A stretch of 64,000 nt of DNA from the human T2T-CHM13v2.0 reference genome, Homo sapiens. Below, in pieces: positions 11,093 through 14,836 of this stretch. Location: the NCBI RefSeq assembly GCF_009914755.1, contig NC_060925.1. One strand, written 5' to 3'. Below the pieces are notes generated by a model. It did not search any database and was not told where the DNA came from. It saw only the letters and a program-made list of their open reading frames with translations. Both the position numbers and the translations under genes were made by a program. Every line of letters starts with the position of its first letter. Position 1 is the stretch's first letter.

Positions 11093-13909
11093 GTTTGGTG
11101 TCAGAAGTAGGATATAAAGTAGAATCTCCCCCAAAGATCCCTAAGAGCAATGGGTGACCAGGCATAGGTACCCATTAAGCCCATTGTGTTCACTGGTTTC
11201 TTCCTGCATTTGTGAGTCACTAGGTAAGTCCCTCTCAGATATCAGGCTTGCAACTTGTGTCCTGAGCTCTCTGAGTTTATTTGAGTAATTTTATTTCTCA
11301 TTTGATTCAGCAGTTAATCTTGGTATTTGACAAGTTCATCTGTTTCCAACAGGAACTATACTAGGTCCAGTATAGTGTACTAGTTTCCAGACAAGGACTG
11401 ATTTCTGGATTGGGATCCAGAGGTCAAATTGGGTACTTGACAGATTGAACTAGGTGTTCAACAGAAACCGAACTGGGGGTCCAGTTGGAGTCCTCAGGTA
11501 GGTAAATTTCAGAAGGGCAAGATATTATGGCTTTGTCAGAATGTACAGAGTCTGGGACTCCTCCATCTGAAACACAGTGATTTCTATGTTCAGATAATAT
11601 GGGCCCAGAACCTGTGACTTTCTAGAGAAATAGGTGTGCCTTACCTATTGAGCCTTACCAGAGATGACTTAAAGTTGCAATGGTCACAGTGAGGATGTTT
11701 AAATCTAGAAAAAATTGTTCATTTAAGGGATGCATTGGGAAAAAATGAGATCCCAAATGTCTCAGAAACAATGATAAATAATTTTGATTGGTATGTAAAG
11801 GTTTCTAAAAGAATGATTTAAAAAAATAGTCTCTCTAAGTAAATCTTTACAATGTGCTAATAAGAAAGTATTCTAAACCTATTAACCTCTTTGATTGCTT
11901 GCTTTTTCCATCTGAACCTACTCAATGCTAACGTCCTTAAAAAATTAGATCCTCAAATGAGCCAGGAGTATCTACAACAACTAAATTTAACTCTTGTTAT
12001 TGCACACATGAACTATTATAAAAGCAACCACTAAGGCTAAAAATAATAAAAACTAATTGGAAATAGGCCAGATAAACTAGGTGTCTCGTTAGTCACTCAT
12101 TTAAAATTTAATCCAGTCTCAATAAGATTGACTCCTAATAATAGGTGAAAATGCCCCAAAACTCCTTCTTGGAGAAGCTTCGTACCCTTTCTCTGGGCCT
12201 TTGAGTTGTGTAAATGTTTTTAAAACACAAGCTTCAGCAAAATGACTCATCAAAAAGAAAAAAGGAGGAATTTTTTAGAAACAAACTGGCAAATGAAAAA
12301 TCTTAATAGTCCTCTCCACAAATATCAATAAAAAGTGCCAGCCATCAGAACAGCTAACTTTAACTAGAGGCTAGATCCAACTAATTAGTTTTATATTATT
12401 ATACCTGGCACATGGCTAAAATTTCAGAACAAAAGCCATGAATTTCTGTTTGCATCTTTCTGTATGTTTACATATATCTACACATGTGTATGCTATTTGT
12501 ACATAATATTATTCTACCTCCAGATGGTATTTATTAGAAACAGTATTAAAGGAGCTCAACTGGCCTAGAGAAAAATAAGCACTTATATAAATTACATATT
12601 TTCTCAGAAGAAAAGAACTTTGCCAAAATGCTTTTCAACTTCATATGACCTGAGTAATCTTTAATAAATGAGAATATTGGTATTAATGAAAGTGAATATT
12701 CCACCTAGTTTTACCCAAATAAGCTCATGTTGTCTGCTATACAATTTGTCAAAAAAATACCTTGAGATGACAGGTAGTTGGTTTTGTTAATATTATGTTT
12801 GCCACTTTAACTATGTTAAATGAAATGACAGGTATTCATTAAATATCTACACCATTTCCAGATAAGACAAACTACTAAAACAAAAATAAAAAAGTGTTCC
12901 ACTTATCTTTTTCTCTCTACCTGATTGTTTCAGAATTTGGAAACTCTTATTAAGTATTTTTATTTTCAATCTGGGTATTTGCATAGGTTCAATAAGAATC
13001 TATTCTCCTTGTAACAGGACATAATTGGGCAAGTCCTTGGCTTGGCTTCTTAGCCTAGAGAGGCTTTTAAAGGTCTAATCTGAGATTTCTCAATTACTAG
13101 ATAGTTTTTAAAAACTAAAGTTGACTGATAAAAAGTCAGTAAAGTCTCTTGGATATCACCAAAGCTGTGGCTAAAATATATTTTAAAATTACTGTTTTTA
13201 TTATACCTATATAAATAATCAGGTCAAATTTAATGAAACTAGATTTATTTTTGCAAAAAAGTTAACTTTGATTTTCGGTAAAAATGGAAAATAAAAATAT
13301 TTTTCTCCAGAATAAAAAAGATTATATTTTAGTAGAAAACTATTGTGCATCCATTGTCAAATTCTAGGCCTGTTCATTTTCTTTGAAGTTTTATTATCTC
13401 CCTATAAACCAGATTGACTCCTGAATTTTTGTTTTTTAGTTCCACTAGAAACTAAAACTGCCCTTTTCCAAAGCTCTGCAAACTGAAACTGGTGACTTTA
13501 AGCTTCAGAAAAATCACTGCAACAGAGCACTTATGCCTTAATGCCAATCTTAATGCCTGCTGCTATCTGGGTCACTCAGAGAGTTTACCAGAATGTTTAA
13601 TGAAATAACCAGAGACATTCAAATTGCAAACCAGTAAAGCACATCACATTGCAACTGCTATCTTCAGTCTACCATTTAAACTTGCCTCAAACTCACCTCT
13701 AGAAATTGTTTCACCTAGCTGCCCTCTAAACTCAAAAACTAAGATCATAATTTGCTCCAAATATTAACTTTGTTTTTTTAATAGAAGAATACTCTGAATT
13801 CCTTTCAAGCAATACAATCTAAAATGAGCAAGTTAGCCTCAATAGCACCCCAAAATAGAAGTTCTTGATATCTTAACAGCTTAACAAGGAGGAGCTTGTG
13901 TTCCTACTG

Positions 13910-14390
13910 ATGTCAAAAGAAATGGTTGAAGATCTCAGCTGGCTTTATGGTGATTCTAGAACTGGGCAACACTTGCCTCCTTAAATTAGAATAAGGTTTC
14001 CAATGAGTTACAGCAGAGGAGATTGGCTTCATAGACAGAAAAAGGTCTGAAGAAAGCAGAAACAAAGAATTTAAAGTGGATTGGCTATTTTAAAACTGGT
14101 TAAAGTTGCAAAAGACAGGAATAGGAAAACAGAATAATAAATAACTGGTTGGTTAACATCAGGTTACTCTTTTGTAAGGATGCCAATTGAAACTGGCCTG
14201 TTTGGGAAATTAGATTTTTAGGTTATTAGGTTATTATCTCTCTCTCCTGATTTTTCCAAAGGCCAGATAAGAATGTAGTTTCTGTTTGATGACTTGAAAC
14301 TTTATCATGGGTGATTCCACTTTGATTTTTAGTCTGTTCTGTTTGGGCCTAGTGCAGGAGCTTAGTGCAAAACAATAGCCTCCTAAAATT
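13910..14390 (-). mobile_element. Nested antisense LTR (MER31-like) interrupting the env remnant
   Basis: Ends GGGCCTAGTGCAGGAGCTTAGTGCAAAACAATAGCCTCCTAAAATTT, the reverse complement of a MER31-type LTR start; lies between the env ISD and TM remnants; boundaries approximate. Confidence 0.55.
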
Positions 14391-14597
14391 TAAAAGACTT
14401 TAAAGAACATACATGAGTTTTTCATCAGATAATATTTATTTGTATTCATTAATTTATTTGATTGGTTAAGTCTTGGCTCCCGAGAATCTTTGCTCAGAGG
14501 AATTTTTCAATCCTTGGCTATTATTCTCCTTATAGTTATTGTATTTACCTCCCCGGTGTATTGAATTATCCTATGGGTTTTAAATGCTTTCCTGCAG

Positions 14598-14771
14598 CCA
14601 CCTGGACGTCAAATGATTGCCATCAGAAAGAGACAACTTGAAGAAACCAACAATGACTATGAAACAGCTGACGGCGGCTACATGACTCTGAACCCCAGGG
14701 CACCTACTGACGATGATAAAAACATCTACCTGACTCTTCCTCCCAACGACCATGTCAACAGTAATAACTAA
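14598..14771 (+). CDS. FCGR2A: FCGR2A exon 7 coding part (ITAM, stop)
   Basis: PPGRQMIAIRKRQLEETNNDYETADGGYMTLNPRAPTDDDKNIYLTLPPNDHVNSNN*; exons sum to 954 nt = 317 aa. Confidence 0.97.
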   Translation, partial: PPGRQMIAIRKRQLEETNNDYETADGGYMTLNPRAPTDDDKNIYLTLPPNDHVNSNN

Positions 14772-14836
14772 AGAGTAACGTTATGCCATGTGGTCATACT
14801 CTCAGCTTGCTGAGTGGATGACAAAAAGAGGGGAAT

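What the first reader, a model, noticed from the sequence alone, without database searches (positions are those of the whole stretch)
13806..14836. The FCGR2A ITAM tail reads as the exapted cytoplasmic tail of a retroviral Env, in its original frame
Seen: extending exon 7 upstream in frame through its acceptor gives YLFVFINLFDWLSLGSRESLLRGIFQSLAIILLIVIVFTSPVY*IILWVLNAFLQ|PPGRQMIAIRK... (from 14433, single stop TGA at 14562-14564). This has a Trp-containing membrane-proximal segment, a hydrophobic TM helix and then the tail. Further upstream, 13806-13902 reads QAIQSKMSKLASIAPQNR-(frameshift)-VLDILTA*QGGACV. The exon's stop (14771) is 65 nt before the 3' LTR. Established: LQNRxxLDxLxxxxGGxC is the immunosuppressive domain of gamma-type Env TM subunits, env ends just before the PPT/3' LTR, and some Env tails (e.g. 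BLV gp30) carry YxxL/ITAM motifs. Inference: a CAG inside env became a splice acceptor and fused the viral tail to the Fc receptor, which would explain the non-canonical 12-residue spacer of YMTL-x12-YLTL (14679-14738). I recall that a retroviral origin of this exon has been noted before; whether the in-frame Env-tail identity is described I cannot verify.
Basis: partly seen in the sequence, partly recalled or inferred. Interest (0 to 1): 0.92.

Follow-up and report, generated by a model that had tools for sequence, protein, structure and literature searches.

The report
FcγRIIA ITAM tail is retroviral Env tail
The signalling tail of the human antibody receptor FcγRIIA is the cytoplasmic tail of an ancient retroviral envelope protein, still read in the virus's own frame up to the virus's own stop codon, which refines a published account that found no envelope homology.

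Summary
FCGR2A exon 7 (14598-14771) lies in a decayed provirus: LTRs 10628-11092 and 14837-15239, a tRNA-Leu primer-binding site, and a polypurine tract.

The FCGR2A copy alone matches no Pfam family. Better-preserved copies of the same element elsewhere in the genome match the gamma-type Env profile TLV_coat and the solved Syncytin-1 TM subunit (E 5e-15). In one copy a single frame runs from the end of the CX6CC region through the membrane helix into a tail homologous to the FcγRIIA tail.

The decisive test used 14 copies that were never host exons. Their stop codons fall 4/48/106 in the three phases over the exon-7 stretch and 11/40/28 over the membrane-helix stretch. The bias disappears after the stop codon (12/15/14) and in the LTR.

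Both YxxL motifs, the 11-12-residue spacer, the acceptor CAG and the stop position all recur in other copies.

The retroviral origin was published by Lejeune et al. (2019), who reported no env homology. I found no paper giving the in-frame Env-tail identity. This is a new detail of a known case, of moderately high interest.

The parts
10628..11092 (+). 5' LTR of the provirus, inserted 72 nt after FCGR2A exon 6
   Evidence: 10627-11003 aligns to 14836-15208 at 78.1% over 384 columns, and 11072-11092 aligns to 15218-15239. Other copies align to both LTRs.
11096..11113 (+). Primer-binding site complementary to the 3' end of tRNA-Leu(CAG)
   Evidence: 16 of 18 bases match the reverse complement of the last 15 nt plus CCA of the tRNA-Leu gene at window 26970-27052. 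The other four tRNA genes of the window give 8-9 of 18.
13806..13926 (+). Remnant of the Env TM-subunit immunosuppressive-domain region, read in two frames (13806-13859 and 13858-13926). The CX6CC cysteines are missing in this copy.
   Evidence: Translations. DNA homology to L024 and L025, where TLV_coat and Syncytin-1 match. The fragment alone gives 4 of 4 PDB hits that are Env TM subunits, best E 0.068.
13926..14381 (.). Secondary insertion of an unrelated high-copy interspersed repeat that splits the env remnant (borders approximate, within about 5 nt)
   Evidence: Many matching pieces across the genome cover only query 121-586, which is window 13926-14391. None of the 9 fetched family copies aligns inside it.
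14387..14428 (+). Env segment between the CX6CC region and the membrane-proximal region (NLKDFKEHT*VFHQ), one frame off the tail
   Evidence: Frame-0 translation. It is homologous to NLKYLKEHTWVFH in L026/L033, which lies inside the TLV_coat match.
14433..14597 (+). Env membrane-proximal segment, membrane-spanning helix (core 14517-14573) and first residues of the cytoplasmic tail. Now intronic, with one stop (TGA 14562-14564).
   Evidence: It is 58% identical to L033 with no gaps over 107 residues. TLV_coat matches of L033 and L055 end at the position of 14565-14582. Stops in 14 copies fall 11/40/28 by phase.
14578..14597 (+). 3' splice site recruited inside env: pyrimidine tract plus CAG (CTTTCCTGCAG|CC)
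   Evidence: RefSeq exon start is 14598. The terminal CAG is present in 10 of 13 copies. 9 of 13 have a second AG three bases upstream (CCAGCAG-type, counted from the acceptor strings printed). FCGR2A has T at 14593, and 0 of 13 copies do.
14598..14768 (+). FCGR2A exon 7 coding part, which is 57 codons of Env cytoplasmic tail in the Env frame. YMTL is at 14679-14690 and YLTL at 14727-14738.
   Evidence: Stops in 14 copies fall 4/48/106 by phase, and 10 of 14 copies have no phase-0 stop.
14769..14771 (+). Stop codon of FCGR2A at the position of the Env stop
   Evidence: A stop sits at the same codon in 4 of 13 copies (L025, L027, L042, L048). 7 more carry a codon one substitution from a stop, as read from the 'end' strings printed. 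The phase bias of stops ends here.
14823..14835 (+). Polypurine tract (AAAAAGAGGGGAA) just before the 3' LTR
   Evidence: Read directly from the sequence.
14837..15239 (+). 3' LTR, now part of the FCGR2A 3' UTR. It contains AATAAA at 15163-15168.
   Evidence: The RefSeq exon 7 runs on to 16453.
15624..15695 (+). Relic of the displaced ITIM exon (ITYSLL...), downstream of the provirus
   Evidence: A motif scan of the three forward frames found ...AENKITYSLLMQSEAPEEQRAQLPEPH*. This agrees with the vestigial IC3 exon described by Lejeune 2019.

Best explanation
A gamma-type endogenous retrovirus inserted into the intron between the second cytoplasmic exon and the ITIM exon of an FCGR2B-like ancestor of FCGR2A. 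The element kept only the 3' third of env. A latent splice acceptor inside env lies about ten residues after the membrane-spanning helix. Exon 6 ends on a complete codon and now splices to that acceptor. Translation therefore continues in the Env frame through 57 codons of Env cytoplasmic tail and ends at the Env stop codon, 65 nt before the 3' LTR.

The two YxxL motifs and their unusually long spacer came with the viral tail. In the host protein they act as the ITAM that lets FcγRIIA signal without the common gamma chain; that function is established knowledge and was not tested here.

Shown here: the proviral anatomy, the Env identity of the element's 3' end, the frame identity, and the presence of the motifs, spacer, acceptor and stop in other copies.

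Inferred: that an A-to-T change at 14593 improved the acceptor, and whatever the motifs did for the virus.
For: **Provirus.** The LTR pair aligns at 78.1% over 384 columns, and a polypurine tract sits before the 3' LTR. The primer-binding site matches tRNA-Leu at 16 of 18 bases, against 8-9 of 18 for four other tRNAs.

**Env identity of the family.**
- TLV_coat scored above its cutoff in 3 of 9 copies, which is 3 of 27 frames: L024 47.7 bits (profile 440-504), L028 37.3 bits, L026 22.6 bits (profile 479-556).
- The L024 ISD segment matched 11 PDB sequences at E <= 0.01. Ten are retroviral Env TM subunits, with Syncytin-1 at 5e-15.
- Env-bearing relatives have a gammaretroviral integrase C-terminal domain just upstream (MLVIN_C, 3.8e-11).

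**Frame.**
- L026/L033 reads one frame from the end of the CX6CC region through the helix to the tail, with 115 codons open. It is 58% identical to the FCGR2A frame with no gaps over 107 residues.
- In a second ERV family, copy L055 has TLV_coat positions 446-556 in a single frame. That frame aligns across the acceptor.
- Stops in 14 copies, by phase: exon-7 part 4/48/106, helix part 11/40/28, post-stop 12/15/14, LTR 72/82/96.

**Motifs in 13 copies.** The second YxxL is intact in 7, the first in 3, and both in 3 (L023, L025, L045), which come from both subgroups. The spacer is 33 or 36 nt in 8. The acceptor CAG is present in 10. A stop sits at the same codon in 4.

**No host donor.** Exon 7 alone finds 10 matches at E <= 1: 3 FCGR2A/C paralogues and 7 ERV copies.
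Against: - The FCGR2A copy itself matches no Pfam family in any forward frame at E <= 10.
- Its ISD fragment alone reaches only E 0.068, and its second fragment finds nothing.
- The TLV_coat matches that include the helix are barely above the cutoff (22.6-25.2 bits against 22.5). They occur in only 2 of 25 matching frames and stop 5 codons before the exon, so no profile covers the tail itself.
- Softer frame tests are weak. Helix and second YxxL are in phase in 8 of 14 copies (binomial p 0.058). Indels that are multiples of three number 32 of 106 against 10 of 55 (p 0.07). Substitutions by codon position are flat at 244/236/249.
- The copies share descent, so the chi-square values overstate independence.
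- Only 3 of 13 copies keep both YxxL motifs.
- No curated repeat library and no other primate genome could be consulted.
Confidence: 0.88

Rival explanations
1. The exon comes from the ERV but from non-coding or out-of-frame internal sequence, so its reading frame arose de novo in the host. This is the implicit reading of the published statement that no gag, pol or env homology exists.
For: There is no Pfam hit in the FCGR2A copy. Lejeune 2019 report no env homology (passages).
Against: Family copies give Env matches in the same frame. Phase-0 stops are depleted in 14 copies that were never host exons, and the depletion ends at the stop codon.
Confidence: 0.04
2. The tail is Env-derived and in frame, but the ITAM-like pair of YxxL motifs was built by host selection after exonisation. 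On this view the virus did not bring it.
For: Only 3 of 13 copies have both motifs, and the first YxxL is intact in only 3 of 13.
Against: The three copies with both motifs belong to both subgroups of the family. A Tyr codon is present at the first site in 5 of 13 copies and at the second in 8 of 13; for L021 this is read from the translation printed. Most non-Tyr codons there are one base from Tyr. The 11-12-residue spacing is shared by 8 of 13 copies.
Confidence: 0.07
3. The ancestral virus had itself captured the tail segment from a host ITAM-bearing gene, so the motif is ultimately cellular.
For: Nothing direct. Retroviruses can transduce host sequence, and the distal tail has no counterpart in the second ERV family beyond about residue 20-35 of the exon.
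Against: Exon 7 alone finds only FCGR2A/C and ERV copies in this genome (10 of 10 matches). The spacing is unlike canonical host ITAMs. The segment sits inside one uninterrupted ORF phase with the helix.
Confidence: 0.04

Closest known systems
Lejeune et al. 2019 (PMC6563257): FCGR2A IC3 exon brought by a composite ERV with MER57F LTRs and a MER34B internal part
   Same: It is the same locus, the same roughly 5 kb element and the same conclusion that the non-canonical ITAM exon is retroviral. They also describe the same second copy at 11p14.3 (my L025) and the same vestigial ITIM exon downstream (passages read).
   Different: They state that no homology with gag, pol or env was found, and they call the internal part a non-autonomous retroelement. 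Here the 3' end is identified as the Env TM subunit from the ISD to the stop, and the exon as the Env cytoplasmic tail in its original frame. Their Supplementary Table 3 was not among the one supplement file held.
Domesticated whole env genes (syncytin-1 and -2, HEMO/ERVMER34-1)
   Same: A host protein is made from gamma-type env sequence. The family's ISD region matches Syncytin-1 and Syncytin-2 TM structures.
   Different: Those are complete env ORFs used as such. Here only the last 57 codons are used, spliced onto an immunoglobulin-superfamily receptor as a signalling module. None of the 74 matches to the helix-plus-tail query lies in an open frame longer than 204 aa, so no intact env gene shares this tail detectably. 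HEMO was not located or compared directly.
Viral ITAMs in retroviral Env proteins (MMTV Env, BLV gp30)
   Same: They are tyrosine-based YxxL pairs carried by a retroviral envelope protein. For MMTV I saw only the search listing and the start of the abstract of PMC2213037. BLV is recalled.
   Different: Those belong to beta- and delta-retroviruses, and their signalling is shown experimentally. For this extinct gamma-type Env nothing is known about what the motifs did. No sequence comparison with them was run.
Canonical host ITAM (FcR gamma chain, CD3, Ig-alpha/beta)
   Same: There are two YxxL/I motifs with upstream acidic residues, and in FcγRIIA they serve the same signalling function (established knowledge).
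   Different: The spacer is 12 residues here, and 11-12 in the ERV copies, rather than 6-8. The motif is encoded by viral sequence, not by a cellular ITAM exon.

Membership tests
Gamma-type retroviral Env, TM subunit (Pfam TLV_coat PF00429) | Immunosuppressive-domain region (LQNRR-LD-L...GG-C type) | tested here: met
   Family copies: L024 47.7 bits and L028 37.3 bits to TLV_coat, and Syncytin-1 at E 5e-15. The FCGR2A copy is homologous at DNA level (13789-13900). Alone it reaches only E 0.068, with all 4 hits being Env TM subunits.
Gamma-type retroviral Env, TM subunit (Pfam TLV_coat PF00429) | CX6CC cysteine motif after the ISD | tested here: not met
   It is present in family copy L024 (C...CC in the TLV_coat match). 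In the FCGR2A copy the stretch reads GGACVPTDVKRNG with no CC. The motif has been lost from this copy, which is a relic and not an intact member.
Gamma-type retroviral Env, TM subunit (Pfam TLV_coat PF00429) | Membrane-spanning helix near the C-terminus, in the same frame as the ectodomain | tested here: met
   TLV_coat positions 479-556 of 560 match in L026/L033, and 446-556 in L055, each in one frame. FCGR2A 14433-14597 aligns to both. Hydropathy maximum is 2.69.
Gamma-type retroviral Env, TM subunit (Pfam TLV_coat PF00429) | Cytoplasmic tail that continues the ORF to a stop shortly before the PPT and 3' LTR | tested here: met
   115 codons are open in L026/L033. Stops avoid phase 0 up to 14768 and not after. 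The stop lies 65 nt before the LTR, with a PPT at 14823-14835.
Provirus (LTR retroelement of retroviral type) | Paired LTRs, a tRNA primer-binding site after the 5' LTR, and a PPT before the 3' LTR | tested here: met
   The target-site duplication is ambiguous (CCTT against TCTT), and an Alu abuts the 3' end.
Repbase/Dfam MER57F LTR with MER34B-int | Match to the curated family models | not testable with these tools
   No repeat library is available. The names are taken from Lejeune 2019 and Kojima 2018.
HEMO / ERVMER34-1 env | Sequence similarity of the TM helix and tail, or of env DNA, to the intact HEMO gene | tested here: inconclusive
   No match of the helix-plus-tail query lies in an open frame longer than 204 aa. 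The env DNA of L025 finds no chr4 locus other than a family copy at 174.9 Mb. HEMO itself was not located, and the 2017 paper is not held.
Canonical ITAM | YxxL/I - 6 to 8 residues - YxxL/I | tested here: not met
   The spacer is 12 residues in FCGR2A and 11 or 12 in 8 of 13 copies. FcγRIIA works as an ITAM (established knowledge) but is non-canonical by spacing.

The most novel reading that the evidence does not exclude
The extinct gammaretrovirus behind this element carried a working ITAM-like signalling or trafficking module in its Env tail, as MMTV and BLV do. Primates then captured that viral module whole: frame, both tyrosines, long spacer and stop codon. On this reading the gamma-chain-independent signalling unique to FcγRIIA is a domesticated viral function rather than a host invention. 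Relic tails elsewhere, such as the 11p14.3 copy that still has both motifs, would then signal if placed on a receptor.
Probability: 0.35. Interest if true: 0.85.

Novelty: new variant of a known kind. Interest (0 to 1): 0.68.

Why it matters
FcγRIIA is the main activating IgG receptor on human platelets, neutrophils and macrophages, and the only one that carries its own ITAM. Knowing that this ITAM is an Env cytoplasmic tail read in the viral frame has three consequences.

- It explains the odd 12-residue spacing as an inherited viral feature.
- It corrects the published statement that the element has no env homology.
- It gives a rare example of a host receptor gaining a signalling domain by splicing into a viral envelope gene, rather than by domesticating a whole env.

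It also makes a question testable: did ancient gamma-type retroviruses use ITAM-like Env tails, as MMTV and BLV do today?

Tried and rejected
- **Pfam on the FCGR2A provirus.** All three forward frames of 10556-15300 gave no family at E <= 10. The family bridge was therefore needed.
- **Codon-position bias.** Substitutions between FCGR2A and 13 copies were flat (244/236/249). This is uninformative, as expected if most divergence is neutral decay after insertion.
- **Phase conservation and indel lengths.** Both lean the right way but are only marginal (p 0.058 and 0.07).
- **Gap-lenient alignment for the insertion junctions.** It gave scattered junk. The borders are taken from the BLAST results and are approximate.
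- **Looking for HEMO.** The TLV_coat family search listed 78 matches, none recognisable as HEMO or belonging to this family. The L025 env DNA search found no chr4 locus other than a family copy. The HEMO 2017 paper is not held. Passages of the 2025 HEMO paper mention neither MER34B nor ITAM.
- **bioRxiv 2021.04.18.440296.** It held all the search terms but does not discuss the origin of FCGR2A.
- **Pfam on the env-bearing relatives L060 and L061.** It found integrase domains but no TLV_coat, because the frame shifts repeatedly.
- **Not attempted.** Orthologue comparison and dN/dS, because no primate genomes are available. Naming the second ERV family or the inserted repeat, because no repeat library is available.
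Full report
It has a single internal stop (TGA 14562-14564), and the exon-7 boundary falls between ...NAFLQ and PPGRQMIAIR.
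- 13806-13859 reads QAIQSKMSKLASIAPQNR. One base further on, the next frame (13858-13926) reads EVLDILTA*QGGACVPTDVKRNG.
- YMTL and YLTL lie at 14679-14690 and 14727-14738, twelve codons apart.
- The stop is TAA at 14769-14771, 65 nt before the 3' LTR.
- From the annotation supplied, the six upstream coding parts sum to 780 nt.

**2. The provirus.**
- The two LTRs are 10628-11092 and 14837-15239. 10627-11003 aligns to 14836-15208 at 78.1% over 384 columns.
- Three bases after the 5' LTR, 11096-11113 matches the reverse complement of the 3' end (plus CCA) of the window's own tRNA-Leu(CAG) gene at 16 of 18 positions. Four other tRNA genes of the window give 8-9 of 18.
- A purine run, AAAAAGAGGGGAA (14823-14835), sits just before the 3' LTR.
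- The element lies 72 nt after exon 6. A relic of the displaced ITIM exon (ITYSLL, 15624-15695) lies downstream, as Lejeune et al. described.
- As a rough inference only, the raw LTR divergence of about 22% fits an insertion several tens of millions of years old. That agrees with their finding of traces in a strepsirrhine.

**3. The FCGR2A copy alone is not recognisable.** Three forward-frame read-through translations of 10556-15300 match no Pfam family at E <= 10. This agrees with the published remark that no gag, pol or env homology was found. There are two reasons for the blank.
- The copy retains only about the last 110 codons of env, spread over three frames.
- About 456 bp of an unrelated high-copy repeat (about 13926-14381) splits it. 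Many genomic pieces match only that part, and none of nine fetched family copies aligns inside it.

**4. The bridge through other copies.**
- The whole-genome DNA search found the ISD piece and the helix/tail/LTR piece together at other loci. Of nine fetched copies, all nine align to the tail side, and six (L021-L025, L029) also align to the stretch just before the insertion.
- Pfam on three frames of the 3 kb before each 3' LTR gave TLV_coat above its 22.5-bit cutoff in 3 of 9 copies (3 of 27 frames). These were L024 at 47.7 bits (profile 440-504), L028 at 37.3 bits (450-502) and L026 at 22.6 bits (479-556 of 560).
- The L024 segment aligns at DNA level to window 13789-13900. It matches 11 PDB sequences at E <= 0.01. 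Ten are retroviral Env TM subunits: Syncytin-1 at 5e-15, Syncytin-2, ERVS71 Env, MLV p15E and others. The eleventh is a coronavirus spike construct at 4e-4.
- FCGR2A's own fragment 13858-13926 finds four PDB sequences at E <= 10. All four are gamma-type Env TM subunits, with a best E of 0.068. The neighbouring fragment finds none.
- Rarer env-bearing relatives (L025, L060, L061) carry a gammaretroviral integrase C-terminal domain just upstream (MLVIN_C at 3.8e-11 in L061, 6.5e-7 in L025). An SU-like stretch with a CW(L/P)C motif follows.
- The order is therefore integrase, SU, ISD, membrane helix, tail, PPT, LTR.

**5. The frame.**
- In L026/L033 (chr11, 126.4 Mb) one frame carries the TLV_coat match (25.2 bits when that frame is scanned alone). 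The same frame runs on, open for 115 codons, into a tail that aligns to the FCGR2A frame without gaps over 107 residues at 58% identity.
- The profile match ends at the residues equivalent to 14565-14582, five codons before the acceptor.
- A protein search with 14433-14771 gave 74 matches at E <= 0.01. A small set covers the whole tail. A much larger set covers only residues about 5-72, at 36-45% identity. That set belongs to another ERV family.
- In one member of that family (L055), TLV_coat positions 446-556 match in a single frame (24.0 bits), and that frame aligns across the FCGR2A acceptor.
- Only 2 of the 25 frames scanned reached the cutoff. The other 23 did not.

**6. The decisive frame test.** I projected the stop codons of 14 copies (none ever part of a host gene) onto the three phases of the FCGR2A frame.

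| Region | Stops in phase 0 / 1 / 2 |
|---|---|
| Exon-7 coding stretch | 4 / 48 / 106 |
| 14433-14597 | 11 / 40 / 28 |
| 14772-14836 | 12 / 15 / 14 |
| 3' LTR | 72 / 82 / 96 |

- Ten of the 14 copies have no phase-0 stop in the exon-7 stretch.
- The copies share descent, so the chi-square values (2.6e-22 and 3e-4) overstate independence. The pattern is still what an ancestral ORF leaves: one phase, continuous from the helix to the exon-7 stop, and no further.
- Softer tests point the same way but weakly. Helix and second YxxL are in the same phase in 8 of 14 copies (p 0.058). Indels that are multiples of three number 32 of 106 before the stop and 10 of 55 after it (p 0.07). The two subgroups differ by in-frame lengths, +24 and -3 nt.
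- Codon-position counts of substitutions are flat (244/236/249).

**7. What the virus brought.** The counts below are for 13 copies (with translations).
- The second YxxL is intact in 7: L021, L023, L025, L026, L029, L042 and L045.
- The first YxxL is intact in 3, and both are intact in those same 3 (L023, L025, L045), which come from both subgroups.
- A Tyr codon is present at the first site in 5 copies and at the second in 8.
- The spacer is 33 nt in 6 copies and 36 nt in 2. The other 5 have disrupting indels.
- At the stop position, 4 copies have a stop and 7 more have a codon one substitution away.
- The acceptor's terminal CAG is present in 10 of 13 copies. Nine also have a second AG three bases upstream. 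FCGR2A alone has T at 14593 (0 of 13 copies), which removes that AG and lengthens the pyrimidine tract. That this change helped exonisation is an inference.

**8. Rivals.**
- A de novo host frame is contradicted.
- A host donor of the ITAM segment finds no support. Exon 7 alone matches only FCGR2A, its two paralogues and seven ERV copies (10 of 10 matches at E <= 1).
- Assembly of the motifs after exonisation is unlikely, given their presence in both subgroups. It cannot be excluded without outgroup genomes.

**9. Prior knowledge.**
- Lejeune et al. 2019 (PMC6563257; abstract and passages of the methods, results and discussion read) already showed that a roughly 5 kb ERV with MER57F LTRs and a MER34B internal part brought the ITAM exon. 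They also noted the 11p14.3 copy. They state that no env homology was found.
- Their one held supplement file does not mention these terms, and Supplementary Table 3 was not seen.
- Full-text searches found no paper that identifies the exon as an Env cytoplasmic tail. The searches were: FCGR2A with endogenous retrovirus, ITAM and exon; MER34B with FCGR2A; FcgammaRIIA with envelope, cytoplasmic tail, endogenous retrovirus and ITAM; FCGR2A with env-derived; MER57F; CD32a with retroviral, ITAM, envelope, exon and primate.
- Subscription journals are largely outside that library.
- Kojima 2018 (passages) lists MER57F under MER57-int and MER34B-int as a separate internal family.
- The family names could not be checked here.

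**10. Verdict.** It is a new and mechanistically satisfying detail of a published case, not a new phenomenon.

Noticed in passing
window 13926-14381: A roughly 456-bp member of a high-copy interspersed repeat is inserted inside the env remnant, between the ISD region and the membrane-proximal region. Many genomic pieces match only this part at 65-83% identity. Its family was not identified.
   Followed up: partly
window 15624-15695: An open relic of the FCGR2B-type ITIM exon (…AENKITYSLLMQSEAPEEQRAQLPEPH*) lies about 385 nt after the 3' LTR, inside what is now the FCGR2A 3' UTR. It matches Lejeune's vestigial IC3 exon.
   Followed up: partly
window 15163-15168: The 3' LTR contains an AATAAA, but the selected RefSeq transcript runs on to 16453. 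The LTR polyadenylation signal is apparently not the main one used.
   Followed up: no
G000:C1:12.38-12.85 Mb (not fetched): About 20 matching pieces of the SU part of this family's env cluster within 0.5 Mb of chromosome 1 on both strands. This looks like one env-bearing copy amplified by segmental duplication.
   Followed up: no
L051-L059 and about 45 further loci: A second, more numerous ERV family shares the membrane-proximal segment, the helix and the first roughly 20 tail residues with the FCGR2A element (36-45% identity). In several copies its env appears to end at ...TY(E/K)*, close to the position of the first ITAM tyrosine. The family was not named.
   Followed up: partly
L026/L033 (G000:C11:126.408-126.410 Mb): Alu-like insertions sit between the ISD and the CX6CC end of this copy's env, yet the ISD and the tail still read in one frame. 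The 115-codon open stretch of this roughly 75-79% identical relic is the longest seen in the family.
   Followed up: no
window 26970-27052 and 11096-11113: The provirus uses a tRNA-Leu(CAG) primer-binding site, and a tRNA-Leu(CAG) gene happens to lie 16 kb away in the same window. This is presumably coincidence, since the region is a tRNA gene cluster.
   Followed up: no
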